Part shown: one piece after another, positions 4,712-22,588 of the stretch
Layout of the letters: every line of letters begins with the position of its first letter
How positions within the stretch are numbered: the first letter of the stretch is position 1
Source: the human T2T-CHM13v2.0 reference genome, Homo sapiens
NCBI RefSeq assembly: GCF_009914755.1
Contig: NC_060938.1
Length of the DNA stretch: 64,000 nucleotides
Direction: 5' to 3' (one strand)
Program-made: the position numbers and the translations under genes
The notes under the pieces: generated by a model
What the model was told of the DNA's origin: nothing
Seen by the model: only the letters and a program-made list of their open reading frames with translations
Database searches by the model: none

Positions 4712-5719
4712 ATACAGCCCTGCCCCAAAGTGATAAATATCACTGTTGGGTTAGGACTGGGTATGGAGCTGTACTCTTTCCAGGAAAAAATGCCCATTGG
4801 CTCTCTCACCAGTAAACCTCCAGATTTGTCATGCAAGAAAAATTCAGTGCCTGCTTGCCAGTGAAGCAAAAGACAGCCCCCACTGAAGATGGTGAACGTG
4901 TGCTCTTTCTTTGTGTGAAATCGAAACATTTCTCCTAGGTTTATGCTGGAATGGGAGTGCAGATTGGAAAGGGGGGGCTGTGCTGATGCATGTATAGAAT
5001 GTGTAGCAGCTTTGACCTATCACGTGTATTCTACATGCCATTTGGCCCCATCTAAAAAAGGTAACATTCAAGTAACTTCAAACCAACTGGCCTCCTCCAA
5101 AATTAGTTTATATGAAGAGGAATCCAACCTCTTATTCTCTCTCAGCATCTTTGCGAGAGTATTTCATAGGTTTCTAAACACTTTGCACACATATTTAATC
5201 GATCAATCACCATAGAGGATCTTCTTTGATTTTGTTCATCACATTCTTGGCCAAATGTCTCAGGGAATGGGTTATGTAGAAAATTTTCCCACCCCCAGCC
5301 CAAGGTTATGTTTGATCCCTCTGTGTGACTGATTTGACTCATTTGGGGAAGCATCTATGCACATACCAACACATGCACCTGTTCCATTTGGTAGAGTATG
5401 CAGCTTAGTGCTTTGAACTATTTTATTCCTGCTGTATGCAGAGTTTCTACAAAGTTAGCAAGTAAAGTGCAAAAGAGTGCTTTCAAAGGGCATTTTTTAA
5501 AGGGTGCCACATACAAAATTTCCAAAACCAAATAAATGTACAGTAGGTGTCTGCAGGGGCAACCCTTTGAGCCATGTTTACACAAAGACCTTGTGCCCTC
5601 TTGGTGGTGGAGATTCCACCATATCTGCTCCCCACATCTGTAAGCTGTGTCCATGAAGCTAGAAAGACACACATACACACAAACACACACAATCACAAGG
5701 ATGCATGACACAGACACTG

Positions 5720-8778: not shown

Positions 8779-9266
8779 CTGGCCAAGAGACAGAAGAGCA
8801 ACAATATGCTGACAAATGCCTCCCTGCCTTGGCCTCCCAGCACCCACAGCCCTCGGGTGTCCCCACGGGGAGGCCAGGAGGTGACGGAGCACATGCCCAG
8901 GGGGAGGTGCAAATGCTACCTTCTGCCCTAGTACTTCTGCCACCTGGACACCCATCCCTAATTGGCTAGTAAATAAGGTGGCTCAGGGAGACACACGTGG
9001 TGGGCAACCCCAAGAAGCCTCAGATTTGGAGATGGTGACTTAAAGAGAGGGGGACGGCATCCTGCAGGAGAGGTTAAAATGTGGAGTTGGACAGGCCTGG
9101 CTTCCAGCTCTCTCTTATCAATTGCATGGCCTCATTCCCCCAACATACACTTGAGTGACCATATATAGCTCACCTGAGACAAGGAAATGCACCTCACTCA
9201 GTCCTGGGCACAGCAGATGTTCAGCAGGCCTTCTGCCCTCCCTGCCTTTCTGGTTTTCTATCCTGG

Positions 9267-9378
9267 CAGGGTGACCAACTTGTTCCAGTTTGCCTGAGGC
9301 TGTCCCAGTTTTAAAACAGAGTCCTGTGTCCTAGGAACTCCCTCAGTCCTGGGAAAACTGGGATGGGTGGCCACCCTA
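9267..9378. mobile_element. MER81 (hAT-type MITE)
   Basis: Terminal inverted repeats AGGGTGACCA...TGGCCACCCT, about 112 bp, palindromic body matching the recalled MER81 consensus. Confidence 0.8.
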
Positions 9379-10589
9379 TCTGGGCCATGCTATGGTCATG
9401 TGCTGTGGGGCTTTCCCTGGTTTAAGAAGATGCTCCAGGGCACCTGGTAACCCACTTCCCCCAGTCAGGGTGCAGGAAGACGGCCTATTCTGCCAAAGCC
9501 CACAGAACAGGCCTCCTTAGAGTGGAGTTTTGCCTGAGGATCAGCACCAAATTTCTTGGCTCTTAATGAACAGGGCAGACAGTATAAGTCCCATGCTTCC
9601 CTCTGCAAATGAGGAACTCAAATTTGTGCATCCAGGAAAGTCAATATTCATGTTGTTCCCTTCTCTTTTGTTATAGCTGATTTTCAGCAGGTCAGTTAGC
9701 TGTCTGGGGAACCGGTCTGGAAATTGCATTGCTTACTTTCCTGGCTTACTTATATAAACCAGGAAAATTAGCATATGGGCCCAGGAAACTGATGTGGGAA
9801 ATCTCTCCATTCAGCAACTTTCTCCTGGGGCCTTTTATACAGAATGAAGCAAACAGAGGCTGGCCCTCTATTTCTTTGGTTTTTCTTATCTCCCTTCCTT
9901 TCTTTTAGCTCTTTTTTTTTCTCCTTCCTTGGCCTTCCTCCTTTCTTTTCCTCTCTTCCTAAGAGAGCTACATGAATATTTATTTTTTAATCACAAAATC
10001 TATCTTTCCTTCATATGTCTTCCTTTACTTCCCTTCATGTAAAGTTACATGCACGGCCCTTCCTCAGGGATGTATATTTGTCTCTATGGATGTGACAACC
10101 AAGAGGGGATAAGTGAAAGAGGCCCATTGGGCTCACTTCCCCGTAGCTGGTCAATGTTCGATGATTTCAGTTTCTTACTGAATCAGGAAAGATTCTTGGC
10201 GTTCAACTGCCTTTCTGCACAGACCCTGAGACCGGAAGGACAGGCTGCACACCCCCCCGACACACTCAGCCATAGTCTACCTCTCCTATTTATTTTCATT
10301 TTCATTTTTTTAAAATCAGCTGTTGTTTACTAGTTTTTCCAGGATTTATGGGCTGGTAAACGAATCACCATATTTTCTCACCTGCCAAAAAAAGAATCCA
10401 GAAATAACTGTATTCTATTCTCCTTAGCTTTGAAGGACTGATTCAACATGAGGAAGCCTATGACCCGCCCCCCGCTCCCCCTGCAAAACCGAGCCAGAAA
10501 CACTCCAGCCCACAGGACAGAGACAGGCAATTCTGGACACAAGCTCATCTGTTCTCAGGAACATTCATAGGGTTAGGAAGGGGTCCTAC

Positions 10590-10732
10590 CTCTTCTTTTG
10601 TCTTTTTGGACAGAACCCGTAGCCAATCTCCGATCATACTGAGGACAGCTGCAAAGTAGGCAAGGCCAACAAGGATCCAAAACCACACTAGGGGCTTATA
10701 CCACTCCCGATAATTGATGCCAGCGTTTCCCC
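10590..10732 (-). CDS. KCNK10: KCNK10 coding exon (exon 6): M4 and proximal C-tail, (G)[47 protein letters not shown]
   Basis: Overlaps ORF 10545..10742. Acceptor gttttcAG at 10733-10734, donor GTAGGA at 10588-10589. Length 143 nt (2 + 47 codons). Confidence 0.97.
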
Positions 10733-13587
10733 CTGAAAACAACCAAATGTTACTTTAACCATGATCTAGCATATGGTCTTTGCAGAGAACACATATTCCA
10801 TTCCATGTAGTGAAGACGTCATCCATCATTGTTTAACACTCAGCTGTTAGGTTTGCTGTGTACAAGGTGGACCGGGGTTAGAGGGCAAGGGGGGTACCCA
10901 TCCCTTACCCAAAAAAGCCTAACTTAAGGCTTTACTTCCCTCGATTCTTGACCACTAACCTTAATACCAGAAATAAAAAACGCCAGTGGCCAACTTGACC
11001 TACTAATGCTTGACCTGAGCGTTAAGGATGAATAACTCTGAACTACAGGACAACAGATCAGGCCTGGTTGTCACTGTTTTTTCTTAAACTTCTCTAAATT
11101 TATTTTAATAAAAATCAAATATAATCATATCACCCCCTATGGTTTGGAATTCTTGGAACCATTTCCATCTTAAGCACCCATACATTTACTAAGAGACAAG
11201 TGGATGTGTGAAAGTAAAATTAGCTTTAATGGCATTACTGGGATTTTGATGCAAGCAATAGTGATTTAATGCTAACTGAGGAATGGTGTTTACATAGTGC
11301 TACTCCAAAGGGTCAGTTAGGCTGAGTAATTAGAGTCACCATAAACTAGAACTAAAAGGGACCTTTGAGGCCAATCCCTTTATTTTATAAATAAGGATTA
11401 CAGTAAAAATCCATCAAACCAAATTGGCCAGTTGCCTGATTGCATTGACTGGCTGTTCCATTGAAAGGACCAGTCATTTATTCTGAATAATTAGCCTATT
11501 TATTCTAACCTTCCTACAGACACTGCTGGAGGCAGCCATGCAAAACAGGTTGCAAGCCCAACCCACCGTCCTAAAGAAGTGAGGAAGCTCCTGGAAATAA
11601 CGGACATCAGCCTCAATCTCTCTCTGGGAAACGCTATTGCCTAAGGAAGCAGGCAGTGGCCATTTCTAAGATGACAGATACTAGCAATGGATTGGTAACT
11701 ATCGTATTAGGTGATGAGTGATTACAGACTTTCCCACCAGACCAAGGTTGTAACCACATCTAGCGCCACTGAGTCTTACGGCAAAGGCAGCTGGGCAAGA
11801 AATGTGACCTGTGGCTCCTCTCGACAAGCTCAAACCCAATCAGCAACACAGCGCAGCAGACCATGAGGCTCGACAGCTGCTGCCACTTCTTAACGTTAGA
11901 ATTCCAACTTCTCTGTGCCAAGCCCCCTTCGGTTTGGTGCAGCTGCTTTTGGTTTTTCCTTTCAGACAACTCTCTCCTGCATCATTAGAGCTGTAGGATA
12001 CGATCTGAGTTCCCGCACCAGTAAGTGGTTTTTGAGGTTCATTTCGTTTCTGTGCTACGCCAGAGAAATCTGTAGCTTTCTCCTGTGGGCTATCTGGGAG
12101 TAAATATTTACCTTTGCAAGTCACTATTACCCAGCAAAGATGGTCACTAGGGTGCGCTAGTGAACAAGGAACAATGAAGCAGGCAGTCAACACCCTTCTA
12201 AGTATCCCTTTATGAGCTGCTTATCTGGATTCGGAGTTCTGTGTGTGCTCCCAGACAGAGTTGCGAAATATTGTAAGGCTGTCCTAAAGTGAGTCAGCTG
12301 CAAAATAAATCAGCAATCAATCCTGCAGGATCAATGATCTGATTACATTTCTAGTAGAGTTCATACTATGTCGAATCACAGCAACCATCAACTCTTGTTA
12401 ATGTATCGTTTTCCAATGATTGGGCAACCTTCCCTATCACTCGCAGACTGTTACCAAAAGATAGAGATAAACTTCCAGTCTTTTCAGGCATGCATTCTCC
12501 AGATTGGTCTGTGTAAGCTCGGAAAACTGGAGCTTGGAAGGGGTCTGGCCTAACTGCAGTCAGCACTGTGACTTTTAAGAGACCGTGGTCTACAGAAACC
12601 TCAGGACAAAGGAAATATGGCTCTGTAATCACTGACAAGGGCAGTAAAACTGTGGATGCCTGGGACTGTGTAGGTTGTGCCCTTACTAGGTAAGTAAAGA
12701 TAAGGTAAAGTACTAGTTTGTACTAAGTGCTCAGTCCATGGTAGATAACAAATAATAAAAGCATCACTTAAAAAATCTCACTCCCAGGCCTCTGCTATTT
12801 GTGCCTCAGATTAACAGACTGAACTGAGCCATTGGTTAGAGATCTGTGTCTGTCACAGGTATCTTATAATAGACAGTCCTCAGGACAGCCCAGTGCTATC
12901 CCAGAGAGCTCTAAATCACCACCCACTGCAGGTTATGCTTTGGATACTTAAAGATGTTTGTGAAATAGTTCAAAATTCCAGCTGCCACTACATGTGTTTG
13001 CCTTAGATTGGAAACACCACTGAGTTTTCCCATGGACCGGCTACGGATGATGCCAAGGGATTAACTGGAATACATCTATAACTGTTCCTCTTACTTTTCT
13101 CAGTTTCTCTGTACAGTCTCTCTTCGGAGCTTGAGGCCACTAACTAGACATCCATGGTTGAGCACTGTGCGTAAGGGGAAAATGGGTAGAGTCCCAGGCT
13201 ACAGGCTTTCTGTAAATGATTTTTAGTCACACTGACTAAAAATCAATTTTTAGTTAAAAGCTAAAAAAAACTAAATTTAGTCACTTTGCAATTCTTAGTC
13301 CTTAACCAATAAAAAGGAAGGGGAAAAAAAACCCTATTATTTCTACAAAGTGGAATTCAGTCTTTGTCTGCCCAATTGGAAGAGCTACAAAACCACTCTG
13401 CCAGTTATTTGTATTATAAAATTAACAGGGAGGCACGCATGCCCCTATTGATGAGCCTTCAGCAATCTCTTCCAGAATTTCCTGTTTGCCAGACTCCCAG
13501 AGACCAGAACCCATCCTCCTGATGTGCACAGTATTCCATGGAGAAATCAAGACACTGCTGGGATCACACGCCAAACAAGAACAGTCT

Positions 13588-13908
13588 GGCCAGGTGCAGT
13601 GGCTCACACCTGTAATCCCAGCACTTTGGCAGGCCGATCACATGAGCCCAACAGATCAAGACCAGCTTGGGCAACATGGCTAAATCCCATCTCTACGAAA
13701 AATACAAAAAATGAAAATAAAAAATAGCCAGGCATGGTGGCACATGTCTGTAGTCCCAGCTACTCAGGAGGCTGAGGTGGGATGATCACTTGAGCCCCAG
13801 AGGTCCGAGGCTGCAGTGAGCCATGATCACACCACTGCACTCCAGCCTGGGCAACAGAGGGAGACCCTGTTCAAAAAAAACAAAAACAAAAACAAAAACA
13901 AAAAAAAA
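13588..13908 (+). mobile_element. AluJ
   Basis: J diagnostics (gatcacttgagccc, ggctgcagtgagccatgatc), (CAAAAA)n tail, TSD AACAGTCT. Confidence 0.92.
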
Positions 13909-13961
13909 CAGTCTGCTTAGGGCTCAGGTCAGGCTGCCACTTCACCAGGAACTGGTAAAGG

Positions 13962-13963
<2 letters not shown>

Positions 13964-14001
<38 letters not shown>
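13964..14001 (+). repeat. (AC)~19 microsatellite
   Basis: Directly visible. Confidence 0.95.
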
Positions 14002-14003
<2 letters not shown>

Positions 14004-14860
14004 CATCCAGACATTTCAAACTTGTGACAGATGATAGAGTTGTTTGATCAAAGTGTTCACTTCTTGTAGTAGAAACTGATCACTTGTCTGAACATCTAGA
14101 ACTATCCTATTAGAAAAAGAGAAGGATGGCCTCTTCCTTCTATCCGTACCTTTCTACCACACTTTTGGGAAACTGGTGCACATATGAAACTAAATCTCAT
14201 TTCATTTGCAATTTCCCTGGCCCTAGATGAAATTGATGATTTTTGTTTCACTTCCTTAAACATAGCTCATCCACATTTATTTTTACAAGGAAGGCTATTG
14301 CTTGTATATACACTCCTGCATAATCCATGAGCTTATATTCCCTCTGGGCAGTTCTCAGCTCCCCATAGTCACCAAAGTCCTCAGCTTTGTATCTGGGCAT
14401 GTGCAGGACAACGTTTGCAGAGACAATGGCTCTCACCTGGGAGTCAGGAAGCTGAACCTGCAGGTCACTGCAGACCAAATTCTATGCTAATCTCATCTGA
14501 GTTTCCTATGTGCCACTTCCTAGCACAGCCTTTATCATTGGATTAGAGAGGTTTAATTCAATTCAGAAGTTCAAGATTTAATGAGAAATTCACTTTAGTC
14601 TTGCATAATTTGTGTGACGATAAGGGAAATAAGCATCCTGAGAAGGAAAGGGTTGGCTTTCTTTTCATAGCAGAAAAAAACCTATGGTATTTATATTACA
14701 TAGGACTAGGGATTTGAAATGAGCCTCTTCACAGCAGTAGTGACACTGAGTCATCTTCATTTGCTTCTCCCGCAACATCTTTTATCGATTGCGAAAAGCA
14801 CAGCCAACAGATTATTTTTCCCGCCAGAGCCCCAGTGCCTGGCCTGCCCAGGGTGCTTAC

Positions 14861-15047
14861 CTGCCACAAAATCACCAAAGCCCACCGTGGTCAGAGTGAC
14901 CACCACAAAGTAAATGGACTCCAAGGCCGTCCAGCCCTCGATGTACTTAAAGATGACAGCAGGGATCGTCACAAACACAATGCAGCCGGCCAAGATGAAC
15001 AGGATGGTTGAGATGACCCGGATCTTGGTCTGACTCACTTGCTTTTT
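14861..15047 (-). CDS. KCNK10: KCNK10 coding exon (exon 5): M3 and pore 2, [62 protein letters not shown](G)
   Basis: Overlaps ORF 14757..15038. Acceptor cttcctAG at 15048-15049, donor GTAAGC at 14859-14860. Length 187 nt. Contains the TVGFGD filter. Confidence 0.97.
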
Positions 15048-15798
15048 CTAGGAAGAGCAAAGGAGAAAGATAGGCAAGTCAGCGGCATCACCCTGGATTC
15101 AGGATATAGATGCACAGAAAACGGTACTGTGTCAGTGACTTTTAACCTTTCTCTGGTCATTGGCTGCTTGGAGGAAATTTGATGAACGCTGTGAACTCTT
15201 TCCTAGAAAAGTGCATTCAGAATTTTTCAAGTGGTCTAGGAGGTTCTCAGGCTCCCTGAAGCCTGTTCGTGGACACCAGGTCAAACAAACAAAAAAATCC
15301 TGCTTAGCCAATGCTTTGAATGTTTCTTGCATGGTTCCATGACTGCAGCCCAAATGCTGATTCTGACTTCTCACTGGTGCAAATATAATGGTTTCCCAAA
15401 AATGCTACCATTTGTCATGTAGTATTACTGATCCACCATTCGTGAGAATGAGTTTGGAGCTCTTTCCACAATGGTGGTGATGGATTTGCACCGTTTCCCT
15501 TGTGTCAAACAGAATATGCTGGAAAAAAAATTATCTGAGTCAGGCCAAAATGTTTGGATGAAACGGAAAACACAGTCATCCCCATCTTCACCTGTGACCG
15601 ACTCTAGCCAAGTATTTGTGTGTTTCTTCGCCCCCACATTTTCCCTGCTGAGGCTGTACATTTATAACACACTTTTGTTTTAAAACACACCTGTCTGAGC
15701 TGGTGCTGTGATCATCATGTGTGTTGACTGTATCACTCACAAGAGACAGGATAGGAGTTAGCATAACAGGGTCCCCGTCTAAATGGGTAGTAGGACGA

Positions 15799-17059
15799 CA
15801 ATTAGATGGACTTAATGATCTGTGGTGAAATCTCCTTTGGGGCTTTGAAATTTTTATACATCTCTGCAAACAAATCTCATCTCATGCCAGCTCCTGAAGG
15901 AGTCAGTTGTTGGGTCATTAAGAAAAAAGCATCTAGAATGGGAATTAGACTGATACTGGGGCAAAGGAATCATACCAGTGGAGTCCAGGAGCAGGACTGG
16001 TAGCATCGGTCATATTCTCTTTGGATGTGCTGAAGGCGACACTGGAATTGACTCTAAGCTGAAAAACTCTAAGCTGAAAAATCCTCGCAATTCTCAGAAT
16101 TGGTGCTGGAGACTGTCATCAGGAGGCCCTGGTATCATATACTAGCATAAATATATGAACGATGTGTTTAACACCAGAATGTATGGCCTTTCTACATTGC
16201 CTAGATGAATTTTCTGCAAACGTACACCACATTTGGGGCAATCAATATAGGAAATCCGTACCATGAGACCTGCATCCTCTTCATCGCACCAAGCACAGAG
16301 AGACCTTTGCTTTATATACTTCATTTTACACATGCAAAACTGAAGCCAAGAGGGGTTAAGGGACTTGCATAAAATGATGCCACTAATGAGCCGAGATTAG
16401 AATTCTGATGTAATTAATTCTCAGTCCAGTGCTTAACAACGGAAACAGCTTTTCAAGTAATTCAACAATTCACCAACCCAAAGAAAGTTGTCAAACAAAG
16501 TCGTCTGCATCTAACAGAAGAAATCAGACTAACTACTGCTGAAAATGGGCAGTCCTCTGTCCCTTCTGTGAAGGAAGACTGAGAATAAAAAATGGTCACC
16601 GGGTGATCTGTCCAGGAAAAGCTAAAGAAATGCCATCCTTCCTTGTAAAAAGGAGGTACTTTTCTAACTCCTAAGAAGGCATCTGGTATATAAAATGGGA
16701 ACAGGGAAAAATAATTTGATCTATGCTTTGATATAGAAACCCTCCTAATCTCCTCAGAGAAGCCATCTGAAAAAAAAATTACAATTTATTGATATTGTTG
16801 AAACTATATATGAAAATATCGACTTTTCCACACATGAAAGTGTCGTAACAAGATAAATTACCTGAAAACTGCAGGGAAAGTTTTGTCTATTTCATAAATT
16901 TCCATGTTGGATATTACAGGAGGATTTTGTGAAGGCAGGTAAGCCCCTCTGAGAATCCAGGAACTTACTTTAATTAGCCTAGTTTTGTTTGCAGAAATGT
17001 ATGAAAAGTTCAAAGCCCAAAAGGAGATTTCGCCATAGATCATTAAGTCAATCTAATTG
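15799..17059. repeat. Long inverted repeat: arms 15799-15874 and 16984-17059, 69/76 identical with no gaps, spacer about 1.1 kb
   Basis: Aligned by hand. Also shows up as near-identical peptides in opposite-strand ORFs 15806..16003(+) and 16858..17043(-). Confidence 0.95.
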
Positions 17060-17809
17060 CTGGCAATGGGAGTACCATTCCTCCTCAAATATTCCTCCTC
17101 AAATGCATAGTGAAGTTAAAGTGAATTAAATGTTTGTGAGATGCTTGTTAAGTCATAAATTAAGATGTGAATGTAATTGCAATCTAAATGAGGTTGAGGT
17201 TGGCAAAAGAGGACTGCAAGTACGTAGGAAGCTGGAGACGTTCCTGGACTTCAGGAGATGGGCAGGAGGGAAGATGGGGAAGGACAGCGGTGGATTTGTT
17301 TGACGGCAGACAAGGAGGTGTATAACAAAGGCTAGATCGTGGCATCTTAATTGCATCATCTACTGGAGACTTTATCAGCAAGGTAAACATTTCACCACTA
17401 CTCACTGCCCCGGCTAACAAGTGTGTTCCTGGGCTGCTTCTCCTAGACATCCAAGGGTCACACTCAGAGAATGTTTGGAGCATTTAATTATCAGGGTATT
17501 TTAGGGACTTAAGAAATGCGCATCTTGCATGTGTATGTGTGTGTAGGTGTATGAAAATATGTGTATACCCATACTTTGCTATAAAAAGAAGTGCTGTGGG
17601 CGTAAGGTTTTAGCAATATCTGTTATTCTAGATACCCATGTTTTTGCTGCCCTCTAGGTATTTAAAAAAAAAAAAAAGTTGCCTTAATTGAACATTTTAA
17701 ACTGCAGCTTTCACAATGGAATCACAAACCATCTCATGTGCCGTGTGGTGATCTTCAGTTTTCTTATCCCCATTAGCCCTGTAACTGTTCACTGCTGCTG
17801 AAAAACCAT

Positions 17810-18040
17810 AGTAGTGTTTAAGAGCACAGAGTCTAGGGAAAGACTGCCTGAGACACATCCCAACCCCACTGCTAAATAGCTGAGTGACCTTAGGCAAGTT
17901 TCTCAACCTCTCTGTGCATTAGTTTTTTTCCTCTATAAAATGGAGATAAGAAATCCCACCTCATCGGATTGTTTGGAAGATTAAACAAGTGTGCAAACAC
18001 TTAGCACAGTGCCTGGTTAATATTCAATGCTTGTTAACAG
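17810..18040 (+). mobile_element. MIR
   Basis: agctgagtgaccttaggcaagtttctcaacctctctgtgc...cttagcacagtgcctgg. Confidence 0.8.
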
Positions 18041-19945
18041 GCCATTTTAATGTAAATGCTCAAATTTTTCCTTAGACGTAGACAGTCCCAGGTTTAATGC
18101 TTCTCTTTGCCATTGAGGAATGTTCCCTCATATGTGGCTTAAGATAATCTCTGTTTAGCTTCAGGAGGTCGCTGCTGGTTGTCCTTTCCTGGATATATTG
18201 TATACCTCATTGTCAATGACAAAAAATGTCCTCATTCTCCTTTGGTTCCTCTTGCCAACTCTGGTTTGAGCTCTCAGACAGTCGCAGCTCACAATCTTGG
18301 AAGCTTTTTTATTTGCCTTCCAATTAATTCCATCCTACTTCCAAAACCCCAGGCTCAGCCACCTCCCCGTCCCATTTTTCATCATCCTTCCGAAACTGCC
18401 AAGAATTGCAGATAACGTTTGCGATGTCAGGAACCAGCTGCAGAGGGATTCTGAGAGGCACAAACCTCACTCTCCCTGCCTCCCTGCCACATCCCCCTGC
18501 CACTTACAGAATGGAGCTGTGTTTCCACGGTGGGGTTGCTAGGCAAAATTGCATGGCTTACTTACCAGTAAGCAGAGCCGCTAGCAGAAAGCTCTGTGAG
18601 AGCCCAGATCTAACTGAGCTAATGTGTCCTTAGGCTAACAAAACTGTTATCAGGGAAGAGATGGTCTGATATGATATTTGGGTAGAACTGATAGGATGGT
18701 CGTTGTACTTCTGTCTAAATCGTGTTTTCACACTTTGTTGATTGGTTAGACTAGAGCGCATGTTCTTCCCTTCTCTTTACACAAACAGTATTTTGCAAAA
18801 CTATCTCCCGTATCTGATTGATACAAACTATAGGAATTTTTTAAGTACTCAAAACCCATCTCCTGTAGAGTTCATTTAGTTGTTAAAATTATATGTGCAA
18901 TTGTTCCAAAGACCAAGTAAGCTTCGTAAACAGGAGGAGAGGGAGCCAGTTCTAAGAGCTCTCTTTTGAGAGAGGGATGTATGGACTGACAATTCGGGAA
19001 GTGTTTACTTGTTTCAGGCCTCAGAGGGCTAAGCCACATGTCCAATTCTCATTAAGCATAATTCTCTGTCTGTTTTTGTTTACTTCCACAATGTTATTTT
19101 GGAGAGCATGTATATTTCCATTCATTTGTGGGCTATTTTTTCATTTAATTTTTACCCCCTCTTTAATCCCCATTGTTTGCATCTTTATGTAATTTCTTAG
19201 AATTCTGAGATTAGCAATTCAGATTGTTTTGTCTGGCTGGGAAATTATTTATTCATTGTGATTTCTAGCCAGGATGTCGGGGATTTTACTCAAGAATAAA
19301 GACACTGCGGTAAAAATCCTAAGACAGAAGCTAAACATGCAGAGCTCAGTTTACGGCTTGGTTTGGTTTGTTGAAATGCAAACACATCACCATAGTAATA
19401 CATCTGAACTGAGGATAATTTCTCAAAATGGAAAGATGATGGGAACTGCCTAGTAAGAGGACTGACTTCATTTTCTTATAACATGTTTTCTTCCAAGATT
19501 TATTTTAGAAGGTTCACTTATAACTAATAATTTCATCATCACAATGAATGGCCTTGTGGCACTAGCAATTCTATAAACTATGAGTAGAGCTTTTAAACAC
19601 TCTCTGCCTAAAATCTCCATGGCAGAGATGCTGTAAGCACACATCAGTGAGAATAGTGAAGTGGAACCTTCAAGAAGCCTACTGAAAAAGTCCCACTCAA
19701 AAGCCGAATACACAAATGGATCATATATACACACACAGAAAAAAGTTTATATCCAGCTTCTGACTCTGAGTCATGTTGCAAGACACCTATGACAGACTGG
19801 CCAGTTCAGTACTTTGCTGGTTTCACTATGCAAAGTTCTTGAAAAAGATGTTGGTATATATGGGTAAATTGTTTTTATCACTAGACTACCAATATAGGTG
19901 CATCTGGGATGGAAAAAAATAAAATTCACAAATAATAAAAACTCA

Positions 19946-20273
<328 letters not shown>

Positions 20274-20441
20274 TTAATTAAAATTTTCAAAAGTTTTCTA
20301 TTCTAAAAAACTGGTTGCTGTTAACATTTGAAGATAATACGCTATTGGAACACAAGATTTGGCATTTAATTCATTCTGCACATAATTATTTAAAACCTTA
20401 AATGTCAGGGACCATTCTAGTTGCAAGGGACATGGCAGTTC

Positions 20442-20492
20442 GAGGGAAGGAGGGAGGGAAGGAAGGAAGAAACAGAAGGAAGGAAGGAGGGA

Positions 20493-20532
<40 letters not shown>

Positions 20533-20551
20533 GGAAAAAAGAAAAGAAAAA
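20442..20551 (+). repeat. GA-rich low-complexity tract with (GA)n
   Basis: Directly visible. Confidence 0.9.
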
Positions 20552-21437
20552 GTTCCTTCCTCTTGCACACAAAGTCCAGCAGGAAGATCTGAGCCTTTGT
20601 CTGAAAAGGTCTTTGTGGCACTGTCCATGGTGCCCCACCCTGGTAGATATTGAAGGCAAAGCTTAGTACCTAATGACACCTAGGTGACCAAATATATCAC
20701 CTGGGAGAGAAGAAAGGAAATAATAACATTCTTGTAGCTCTGGCATGTGGAATATAAAAGCATGCCAACTGTAATGGACGACCTTTAAATCTTTGTCAGT
20801 CAGGCATTCAGAAGGTAGGTCTCAGAGGCAGGAAAACTCATAAGCGATCACACCACATGTAGAAAACATCCAGACAAATCCTTAACTGAAGAAGGGTCCT
20901 TCTCTTTGGTTGAAGCATGAAAGAAAGCCCATGGAAAGGTAAGGAGAATGGGACACCTGCTGATGAGCCACATCAACTGAGTAACTCCTGACAATCCCAA
21001 AAGATGCCCCTCCCAGCTGCTCACCTATCCAAATTCTAAATTTATCCTACTCAAATTTCAGCAGCATGATGAACAATGCCTCCATCTCAAATGGCCTCTC
21101 CACCATCATAAACAGAAGCATACAATAATACTACAGTAACAATGCTACAGACAGCTAAAAGGTAGACTCACTCTTCTTCCACTGGCTAACAAGGTGTAAG
21201 GGCACAGTTCCCTGGCTAAGCAGTGCACAGGAGTGAAGGCACAAGACCATTCTAATAGGATAAATGCTCATTTTCCGCCCCAGTGCTTTCCTTGTATAGG
21301 GAGCTCCACCTGCTGCAATACACATGGCCACTCAACTCTTATTCTGACCCAGGAACTGTTAACCCAGCCCCTTCCTCTCCCCTTCCTTTTGGGAGTTACC
21401 CCTTGTGATCTCCTATCTAATTCTGAGGTTGTATTAG

Positions 21438-21869
<432 letters not shown>

Positions 21870-22588
21870 TAGCAGAAAGCTCAGTGATTATTCCATTATG
21901 AAGGGGGAAAGAGGTGAAATCCTCTGGTGTTCAGCAAGCTCTCCTCAAGGGAAGGTGAGTTCCCTTCTTTAGCTTGTGAATGTTCACCCGGAAGGAAGAC
22001 ATGTTGTAAAAGCAGAAAAGTAGGGTGAGATTACAGTGGGTTTCTTGCTAAGGGTGCTCTGCTAAAAGAAGAGTGGATTGGGACAGCCATTAAGGAACCC
22101 TGAGCCCTGGCTAGAGCTGTCTGGGAAGGACAAGAACCTGGAAAAGCAGCCAGGGCAAGGGGAGAGCAGTGTTAGGGTTCTCATGTAGCCATAAAACAGA
22201 CTAGGTCAGTAAAACACCCCTTGCCTCGCTGGCTCCTCTAGGAACACTTTACTCTTTCTTGTCCTTCCCACCCATCTCTTAGCTATGCAGCTGTTCCCTG
22301 GAACCAGTATCCAAGAGTACCCAGAACACGTAAAAGAGAAGAAAGTTGTCATATGATCCCTATCCCCACTCCCATGAGTAGCCCAGAGGCTACTAGACAG
22401 AAGAACTATCTATAGGCCCAGGAATAAAGGTAAATGACAAACAGGTATGCATTTTCTGTGACCTTATTTATCTTGCCTGTTAGAAGATTTGAAGACAGCC
22501 TTCAAGGTCAGATAGATTTAGGTCAACACCTATACAAATACCTGGGTATTGCTGGATAAGCAGTAAACAACGCCCTTCCCAATAGACA

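What the first reader, a model, noticed from the sequence alone, without database searches (positions are those of the whole stretch)
15799..17059. Non-Alu 76-bp inverted repeat able to form a long duplex in KCNK10 pre-mRNA
Seen: arm A (15799-15874) and the reverse complement of arm B (16984-17059) align without gaps at 69/76. The arms do not look like Alu, L1 or any TIR I recognise, and there is no flanking TSD. At most there is a faint likeness to a MIR3-type tail, which would be far too old to give 91% identity by chance. In the sense (minus) transcript the 7 differences give 3 A-C mismatches, 3 U-C mismatches and 1 G-U pair. Known: A-C mismatches in long duplexes are preferred ADAR sites. 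Inference: a maintained RNA stem about 750 nt upstream of the exon 5 acceptor, at the end of a 35-kb intron. Caveat: a plus-strand transcript would pair slightly better (3 G-U).
Basis: partly seen in the sequence, partly recalled or inferred. Interest (0 to 1): 0.75.

Follow-up and report, generated by a model that had tools for sequence, protein, structure and literature searches.

The report
Single-copy inverted duplication in KCNK10 intron
Two 79-base stretches in an intron of the potassium-channel gene KCNK10 are reverse-complement copies of each other and occur nowhere else in the genome; this looks like an old, probably harmless scar of DNA repair that could fold the pre-mRNA into a double-stranded stem, and nothing shows that the stem is maintained or used.

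Summary
The spacer is 1103 nt and the edges are sharp. A whole-genome search and an exhaustive 30-mer scan of T2T-CHM13 find only these two arms. That rules out Alu, L1 or any young multi-copy repeat. No target-site duplication abuts the arms, no transposase remnant is seen and no Rfam family matches.

In the sense (minus-strand) RNA the arms pair in both the minimum-energy and centroid folds. The duplex energy is -98 kcal/mol, and 70 of 79 pairs have probability above 0.5.

Nothing shows that the stem is "maintained". The 10% arm divergence fits a neutral duplication roughly 25-55 Myr old (range 10-110). Seven of the 8 differences break pairs in the sense RNA. Pairing is better on the untranscribed-sense strand.

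Best reading: a one-off local inverted duplication made by break repair or template switching, possibly an inversion scar. It is one of roughly half a million non-repetitive predicted dsRNAs in the human genome, of which under 1% are edited on both arms (PMC11838218). Conservation and RNA editing could not be tested here. Interest is low to moderate.

The parts
15799..15877 (-). Arm A. It forms the 3' half of the stem in the KCNK10 sense (minus-strand) transcript.
   Evidence: 79 nt, 71/79 identical to the reverse complement of arm B. T2T chr14:82413799-82413877.
16981..17059 (-). Arm B. It forms the 5' half of the stem in the sense transcript.
   Evidence: It is the only other place in the genome that matches arm A. 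It retains a CpG where arm A has TpG (position 28).
15878..16980 (.). Unique 1103-nt spacer, the loop of the RNA structure.
   Evidence: No second copy in the genome (a 1901-nt query that found only itself). No Pfam match above cut-off in 8 stop-to-stop ORFs. No Rfam hit.
16309..16411 (.). Old SINE-like (MIR-like) stretch inside the spacer.
   Evidence: Weak nhmmer match to 17855-17955 on the opposite strand (E = 0.0055) and to L010 (64.6% over 82 nt). The name MIR is my recollection of the consensus and was not tested.
15782..15792 (+). Left copy of a possible short direct repeat, 6 nt outside arm A.
   Evidence: Matches 17065-17074 at 10 of 11 with one gap. Empirical p = 0.012 among random flank pairs, uncorrected for 12 comparisons.
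17065..17074 (+). Right copy of the possible direct repeat, 5 nt outside arm B.
   Evidence: The 5-6 nt between each copy and its arm do not match each other as an inverted repeat (2 of 6 by eye).
14861..15047 (-). KCNK10 exon 5 (context). Its acceptor lies 751 nt downstream of arm A in transcript sense.
   Evidence: Hub annotation. Splice-site sequence checked. No exon-to-intron complementarity beyond 11 nt (E = 0.38).

Best explanation
This is a one-off local inverted duplication of a 79-bp piece of ordinary intronic DNA. It was most likely made in a single mutational event during break repair or replication. The two candidate events are a template switch that copied nearby sequence in reverse complement, and a 1.2-kb inversion with a staggered break that duplicated one breakpoint. 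The arms have decayed neutrally since then to 90% identity. As a by-product, the KCNK10 pre-mRNA can fold so that the two arms form a 79-bp imperfect duplex closing a 1.1-kb loop, 751 nt upstream of the exon 5 acceptor. Such a duplex is a plausible low-level ADAR substrate in the nucleus. The three adenosines opposite C (plus-strand T at 17036, 15826 and 15855) are the likeliest sites. No maintained function is needed to explain the sequence. Shown: the repeat, its uniqueness, its sharp edges and its predicted folding. Inferred: the mutational mechanism, the age, the neutrality and the editing.
For: The two arms are the only copies in 3.1 Gb. The BLAST-type search scored 2 of 2 candidates, both of them the arms. 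The 1901-nt query found only itself. The exhaustive 30-mer scan with up to 3 mismatches gave 1 forward and 1 reverse hit, with 0 and 0 for the reversed control. Similarity ends abruptly at all four edges and nothing else in 12000-21000 is related. No abutting target-site duplication was found. No transposase-like ORF was found: 0 of 8 ORFs reached a Pfam cut-off. There are 8 of 79 differences and no indel. The JC distance is 0.109, which gives 25-54 Myr at 1.0-2.2e-9 per site per year and 10-110 Myr from the binomial interval (the rates are general knowledge). The differences are 4 transitions and 4 transversions, one at a CpG. Seven of 8 break pairing in the sense RNA. Folding: the stem is present in the MFE and centroid structures of a 1341-nt sense RNA. 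The duplex energy is -98.0 kcal/mol, against -7 to -8 for each arm alone. 64 of 79 pairs have probability above 0.9 and 70 of 79 above 0.5. Precedents read as passages: staggered-break inversions leave inverted duplications of non-repetitive DNA of 46 bp to 1.9 kb, often at only one breakpoint (PMC1885836). Template switching creates reverse-complement copies and hairpins in one step (PMC8794818; PMC8755829). dsRNAscan predicts 497,429 non-repetitive dsRNAs in the human genome, of which 4,597 are edited on both arms (PMC11838218 Table 1).
Against: No outgroup genome could be consulted, so neither the age nor the ancestral state (one arm missing, or spacer inverted) is shown. The identity is also what purifying selection on both arms would give. 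No microhomology is visible at any of the four junctions by eye, which does not favour a microhomology-primed template switch. The second, interleaved inverted duplication expected from two staggered breaks is only a 6-nt match (p = 0.12). The strand-skew test for an inverted spacer had no power (z = -0.44, sd 0.13). The 1.1-kb distance is larger than the short-range template switches described in the papers I read. An offset 10-of-11 direct repeat (p = 0.012 uncorrected) hints at an insertion event instead.
Confidence: 0.6

Rival explanations
1. Selected RNA structure. Both arms are kept by purifying selection because the intronic stem has a function, for example as an ADAR-binding or editing platform or as a regulator of exon 5 splicing or pre-mRNA processing in neurons.
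For: A strong predicted duplex forms in the sense transcript. At 91% paired and -98 kcal/mol it is better than the median unedited non-repetitive dsRNA (75.2% paired, -44.6 kcal/mol; PMC11838218 Table 1). There are three A-C mismatches, a context ADARs favour (general knowledge). A conserved intronic inverted pair carrying five edited sites exists in GRIA4 (PMC4053846). The dsRNAscan preprint reports conserved dsRNAs enriched in neuronal genes.
Against: Seven of 8 differences disrupt sense-strand pairing, and the plus strand pairs better (-106.6 against -98.0 kcal/mol). The longest uninterrupted Watson-Crick run is 13 bp (19 with one G-U), close to the unedited median of 14 and far from the edited median of 30. 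Both arms lie in one intron and neither pairs with an exon. KCNK10 is not among the rows I saw of the 59 conserved mammalian editing sites. Five papers hold both KCNK10 and A-to-I; by title and abstract start none concerns this intron (listing only). No Rfam family matches.
Confidence: 0.12
2. Terminal inverted repeats of a very low-copy or extinct cut-and-paste DNA transposon about 1.27 kb long, possibly Mutator-like with long TIRs and a target duplication of about 10 bp.
For: The architecture is long terminal inverted repeats around a non-coding interior. A 10-of-11 direct repeat flanks the whole unit at 15782-15792 and 17065-17074 (p = 0.012 uncorrected). Its identity is similar to that of the arms.
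Against: There is no other copy in the genome. A family active recently enough to leave 90%-identical TIRs should have left relatives at similar identity. The direct repeat does not abut the arms, and the 5-6 intervening bases are not inverted repeats of each other (and sequence by eye). After correction for 12 comparisons the p-value is about 0.14. No transposase remnant was found. The interior holds an old SINE-like fragment and has no donor copy elsewhere. Transposon activity in the human lineage is reported to have stopped around 37 Myr ago and to have involved only multi-copy families (recalled, Pace and Feschotte 2007, not read here).
Confidence: 0.12
3. An old inverted repeat kept similar by intrachromosomal gene conversion between the arms, or two copies of a conserved DNA regulatory element (duplicated enhancer module) each under selection at the DNA level.
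For: High identity with sharp edges. The arms contain AT-rich homeodomain-like motifs (by eye, not tested). RefSeq enhancer and silencer elements lie within a few kb (hub table).
Against: 79 bp is below the homology length usually needed for efficient conversion or recombination. The figure of 50-250 bp is quoted in PMC8755829. None of the listed RefSeq functional elements overlaps the arms (hub table). There is no supporting data.
Confidence: 0.06

Closest known systems
Non-repetitive predicted intramolecular dsRNAs of the human genome (dsRNAscan catalogue, Andrews and Bass 2025 preprint, PMC11838218)
   Same: An intronic inverted repeat outside multi-copy repeats with a kb-scale loop. Length (79 bp against a median of 75) and contiguity (13-19 against 14) are typical of the unedited class. 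By their published scoring (+3 per pair including G-U, -4 per mismatch, threshold 75) I compute 188, so it should be in their catalogue.
   Different: It is better paired (91% against 75%) and more stable (-98 against -44.6 kcal/mol) than the median unedited member. I could not check the catalogue itself, because only one small supplementary file is held and it has no KCNK10 entry.
Inverted Alu pairs, the main ADAR substrates in human introns (PMC4365171, passages)
   Same: Two inverted copies about 1 kb apart in one intron that fold into dsRNA. Hyper-edited Alus have their nearest inverted partner 814 bp away on average.
   Different: Here the arms are 79 bp rather than about 300 bp, they are single-copy rather than a million-copy family, and they arose by one local duplication rather than two insertions.
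Conserved intronic inverted pair in GRIA4 with five edited sites (PMC4053846, passages)
   Same: Non-Alu, intron-only dsRNA in a neuronal ion-channel gene.
   Different: The GRIA4 pair is extremely conserved across mammals and demonstrably edited. Neither property is shown here.
Inverted duplications at inversion breakpoints from staggered breaks (Ranz et al. 2007, PMC1885836, passages)
   Same: Non-repetitive sequence duplicated in inverted orientation at the two ends of a unique segment, with no TSD, often at one breakpoint only, and within the reported size range of 46 bp to 1.9 kb.
   Different: Those cases are megabase inversions in Drosophila proven with outgroups. Here the segment is 1.1 kb and its inversion is untested.
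Template-switch mutations that create hairpins (PMC8794818, PMC8755829, PMC7954356; the last seen in the search listing only)
   Same: A one-step creation of a reverse-complement copy of nearby sequence, giving an instant stem.
   Different: The described events are mostly tens of bases long with source and target close together. Here 79 nt was copied 1.1 kb away.

Membership tests
Alu / L1 / other multi-copy interspersed repeat pair | Many related copies elsewhere in the genome | tested here: not met
   Only the two arms match in 3.1 Gb. Each arm has 2 hits in 264 kb. The one other inverted pair found there has 75 hits.
Cut-and-paste DNA transposon / MITE | Terminal inverted repeats | tested here: met
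   79-nt inverted repeat, 90%.
Cut-and-paste DNA transposon / MITE | Target-site duplication directly abutting the TIRs | tested here: not met
   No abutting repeat. The only candidate is offset by 6 and 5 nt: 10 of 11, p = 0.012 uncorrected, about 0.14 after correction for 12 comparisons.
Cut-and-paste DNA transposon / MITE | Family of related copies, or a match to a curated consensus (Dfam/Repbase) | tested here: not met
   No other copy at 90% or more in an exhaustive scan, and none found by the BLAST-type search. Comparison with Dfam or Repbase consensus sequences was not possible with these tools. Searches for diverged relatives in 264 kb found none but had little power.
Cut-and-paste DNA transposon / MITE | Transposase coding remnant (autonomous copies only) | tested here: not met
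   0 of 8 stop-to-stop ORFs of 60 aa or more reach a Pfam cut-off. The best were E = 0.014 and 0.04, to unrelated families.
ADAR-edited intronic dsRNA (editing-enriched region) | Intramolecular duplex of about 30 bp or more within a transcribed region | tested here: met
   Prediction only. The stem is in the MFE and centroid folds, 70 of 79 pairs have probability above 0.5, and the duplex energy is -98 kcal/mol. It lies inside KCNK10 intron 4 (hub table).
ADAR-edited intronic dsRNA (editing-enriched region) | A-to-G differences between RNA and DNA on the arms | not testable with these tools
   No RNA-seq or REDIportal access. Supplement searches found nothing for KCNK10 in the few files held.
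Evolutionarily maintained structured RNA | Both arms conserved across species, with compensatory changes | not testable with these tools
   Only one genome is available. Within it, 7 of 8 arm differences break sense-strand pairs.
Evolutionarily maintained structured RNA | Match to a curated RNA family | tested here: not met
   Rfam scan of 14500-18500 gave two sub-threshold hits (23.8 against 90 bits, 15.6 against 65 bits), both outside the repeat.
Inversion with staggered-break inverted duplication | Non-repetitive inverted duplication bounding a unique segment, without TSD | tested here: met
Inversion with staggered-break inverted duplication | Segment inverted relative to the ancestral order | not testable with these tools
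   No outgroup is available. The strand-skew proxy was uninformative (z = -0.44).
Inversion with staggered-break inverted duplication | Second, interleaved inverted duplication from the other breakpoint (optional) | tested here: inconclusive
   A 6-nt match between the inner-left and outer-right flanks, p = 0.12.

The most novel reading that the evidence does not exclude
A primate-lineage, non-repeat inverted duplication created in one step a stable dsRNA stem in the pre-mRNA of the neuronal K2P channel gene KCNK10, and the stem has since been co-opted. ADAR would bind it and edit the three adenosines that face cytosines, which would tighten the helix. The stem with its 1.1-kb loop, just upstream of exon 5, would tune splicing kinetics or nuclear processing of the 35-kb intron in brain. 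It would be a rare dated example of a functional RNA structure born from a single structural mutation.
Probability: 0.08. Interest if true: 0.55.

Novelty: new member of a known kind. Interest (0 to 1): 0.22.

Why it matters
As it stands this is a clean example of a single-copy inverted duplication inside a gene. It is useful mainly as a reminder that high arm identity in a non-Alu inverted repeat can reflect a recent origin and need not reflect selection. If both arms proved conserved beyond primates, or clearly edited in brain RNA, it would add a non-repeat, intron-only dsRNA element to a clinically relevant potassium-channel gene. It would also give a datable case of a stem created by one mutational step. 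Without such data it is one of hundreds of thousands of predicted non-repetitive dsRNAs and has no known consequence.

Tried and rejected
1. Old-repeat membership. I searched 15401-17500 with nhmmer and with blastn at +1/-1 scoring against 264 kb, made of the window with the query region masked plus 200 kb of adjacent chr14. Nothing hit the arms or the junction flanks. Only the SINE-like stretch gave one or two weak hits. About 50 old SINEs should lie in that sample by general expectation, so the method has very little power and says little.

2. Split old repeats. I had planned to look for old repeats split across the four candidate ancestral junctions. I abandoned this for the same reason.

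3. Strand-composition test for an inverted spacer. The spacer's TA skew is -0.117 against an intron mean of -0.059 with sd 0.132 over 29 windows. This has no power.

4. Unbiased background rate of single-copy inverted repeats. The only census is the contiguous 264 kb that contains the finding itself. It holds 2 inverted pairs of at least 50 nt, at least 85% identity and spacer up to 5 kb: this one and a 75-copy repeat.

5. Earlier-findings notebook.

6. Coding or exon-derived origin of the arms. Both arms are open in one shared frame. By eye, the 8 differences give 6 amino-acid changes and 2 silent ones, and Pfam finds nothing. Rejected.

7. Editing-complementary-sequence role. No complementarity between exons 4-6 and 9000-22000 beyond 11 nt. 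Rejected.

8. Literature. The search for KCNK10 with A-to-I returned 5 papers, none relevant by listing. Supplement searches for KCNK10 in PMC4365171 (3 files held) and PMC11838218 (1 file held) found nothing. The large tables of those papers are not held, so this is not evidence of absence.

9. Cytoplasmic sensor (MDA5 or PKR) ligand. Considered and set aside. The duplex is intronic, 79 bp long and interrupted every 3-19 bp.

Full report
**1. The observation**

The window holds an inverted repeat with arms at 15799-15877 and 16981-17059, 79 nt long, 90% complementary and 1103 nt apart.
- My own ungapped comparison gives 71/79.
- Sixty bases beyond either end of each arm show only scattered identities.
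- A sensitive self-comparison of 12000-21000 finds nothing else related, apart from two Alu-like direct copies (13572-13908 and 19929-20246, 76%) and chance-level hits.
- The match is far beyond chance: E = 1.6e-26 in the window and 1.5e-21 against the whole 3.1-Gb assembly.
The sense (minus-strand) RNA has 3 A-C, 3 U-C and 1 G-U, plus an A-A at position 77 of the 79-nt arm. A plus-strand RNA would have 3 G-U.
- The position relative to the gene is also correct. The exon 5 acceptor is 751 nt from arm A, and the intron is 34,975 nt (hub table; splice sites read).

**2. It is not a known kind of repeat pair**

- A BLAST-type search of the window's own genome with arm A scored 2 of 2 candidates: arm A itself and arm B.
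- A 1901-nt query covering the whole unit found only itself and the two arm cross-matches.
- That search skips very common words, so I added an exhaustive scan with an unchanged 30-mer of arm A and up to 3 mismatches. It gave one forward and one reverse hit, the two arms, and 0/0 for the reversed control.
- A repeat family young enough to have two copies 90% alike would have left other copies of similar identity. None exists.
- The spacer also has no donor copy elsewhere.
- Eight stop-to-stop ORFs of 60 aa or more give no Pfam match above cut-off.
- Rfam gives two sub-threshold hits, both outside the repeat.
- Membership of an ancient, highly diverged family could not be tested, because no repeat library is available. 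My substitute searches against 264 kb of genome had almost no power.
- An ancient origin would in any case not explain 90% identity.

**3. The flanks**

I compared the four 25-nt flanks in all 12 pairings and orientations against about 4000 random pseudo-elements drawn from the same intron.
- Nothing abuts the arms.
- The best signal is a direct repeat at 15782-15792 and 17065-17074, matching 10 of 11 with one gap. Its p-value is 0.012 uncorrected and about 0.14 after correction. It lies 6 and 5 nt outside the arms.
- The bases between the direct repeat and the arms are not inverted repeats of each other (2 of 6 by eye).
- This keeps a transposon-like insertion alive as a minor rival but does not establish it.
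- A second, interleaved inverted duplication would mark an inversion with two staggered breaks. It is represented only by a 6-nt match (p = 0.12).
- By eye there is no microhomology at the junctions.

**4. Age and selection**

- Eight differences in 79 sites and no indel give a Jukes-Cantor distance of 0.109.
- At 1.0-2.2e-9 substitutions per site per year (general knowledge), the duplication would date to about 25-54 Myr. The binomial interval widens this to 10-110 Myr.
- An event in the primate lineage followed by neutral decay therefore accounts for the identity.
- The pattern of differences gives no hint of selection for pairing. There are 4 transitions and 4 transversions, and one difference is CpG against TpG. 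Seven of 8 disrupt the sense-strand helix.
- Only 1 of the 4 transitions leaves a G-U in the sense RNA, against 3 of 4 in the antisense. The numbers are too small for a test, but they point away from a maintained sense-strand stem.
- True compensatory evidence cannot come from one genome.

**5. What the RNA would do**

- Folding 1341 nt of the sense transcript puts the two arms together in both the minimum-energy and the centroid structures.
- In that fold, 64 of 79 pairs have probability above 0.9 and 70 of 79 above 0.5.
- The isolated duplex is worth -98.0 kcal/mol in the sense RNA and -106.6 kcal/mol in the plus RNA. Each arm alone is worth -7 to -8 kcal/mol.
- The helix is interrupted. The uninterrupted runs are 9, 13, 3, 12, 10, 4, 19 (including one G-U) and 2.
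- The duplex should therefore form if the intron persists long enough. It is a plausible nuclear ADAR substrate.
- The adenosines opposite C correspond to plus-strand T at 17036, 15826 and 15855.
- No exon sequence is complementary to the region, so this is not an editing-complementary sequence for a coding site.
- Being intronic, short and mismatched, it is an unlikely ligand for cytoplasmic sensors. This last point is inference.

**6. Comparison with what is known**

- The dsRNAscan preprint (PMC11838218; abstract, passages and Methods section read) predicts 5.13 million intramolecular dsRNAs in the human genome. Of these, 497,429 are non-repetitive, and only 4,597 of them are edited on both arms.
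- Unedited non-repetitive members have medians of 75 bp, 14 contiguous pairs, 75% paired, -44.6 kcal/mol and a 1407-nt loop. Edited ones have 144 bp, 30 contiguous pairs, 87.5% paired and -184.8 kcal/mol.
- The KCNK10 pair has 79 bp, 13-19 contiguous pairs, 91% paired, -98 kcal/mol and a 1103-nt loop. It sits between the two classes and closer to the unedited one in length and contiguity.
- By their scoring I compute 188 against a threshold of 75, so it is probably already in that catalogue. I could not check, because the tables are not held.
- Over 99% of their predictions are not conserved, and 1,502 are.
- A functional analogue exists in GRIA4, where two intronic inverted segments are extremely conserved and carry five edited sites (PMC4053846). 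No KCNK10 site appears among the rows of that paper's 59-site table that I saw.
- For the mutational origin there are two precedents. One is the inverted duplication of non-repetitive DNA left at inversion breakpoints by staggered breaks, 46 bp to 1.9 kb long and often at one breakpoint only (PMC1885836). The other is template switching that writes a reverse-complement copy of nearby sequence (PMC8794818; PMC8755829).

**7. Verdict**

The feature is real, single-copy and able to form dsRNA. The most economical account is a one-off inverted duplication that has drifted neutrally (confidence about 0.6).
- A selected RNA stem: about 0.12.
- The ends of an otherwise extinct transposon: about 0.12.
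- Conversion-maintained or regulatory DNA duplicates: about 0.06.

The decisive data are multi-species alignments, a Dfam scan, brain RNA editing calls and duplex-capture reads. None of these was reachable here. I rate it a new member of a known kind, of low to moderate interest.

Noticed in passing
window 16309-16411 and 17855-17955: Two weakly similar stretches in opposite orientation (nhmmer E = 0.0055). They look like old MIR-type SINE fragments (name recalled, not tested). One lies inside the spacer of the inverted repeat.
   Followed up: partly
window 13572-13908 and 19929-20246: Two Alu-like copies in direct orientation, 76% identical over 339 columns. They coincide with stretches the hub lists as masked repeats.
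   Followed up: no
window 13214-13248: A 35-nt self-complementary palindrome at 85.7% (E = 2.4e-4 in a 9-kb self-comparison). It lies just beyond the RefSeq enhancer at 12939-13108.
   Followed up: no
window about 16054-16084: A short tandem duplication of a unit of about 15 nt inside the spacer. Seen by eye and not analysed.
   Followed up: no
L013 (C14:82562001-82572000), about 2621-2727 and 5148-5255: The only other inverted pair in the 264-kb census: 108 nt, 87%, 2420-nt spacer. It is made of a multi-copy repeat with 75 hits in 264 kb, presumably Alu.
   Followed up: no
PMC11838218 text against its Table 1: The preprint's text says non-repetitive dsRNAs average about 2 per megabase. Its Table 1 counts about 497,000 of them, or roughly 160 per megabase. 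I used the table.
   Followed up: no
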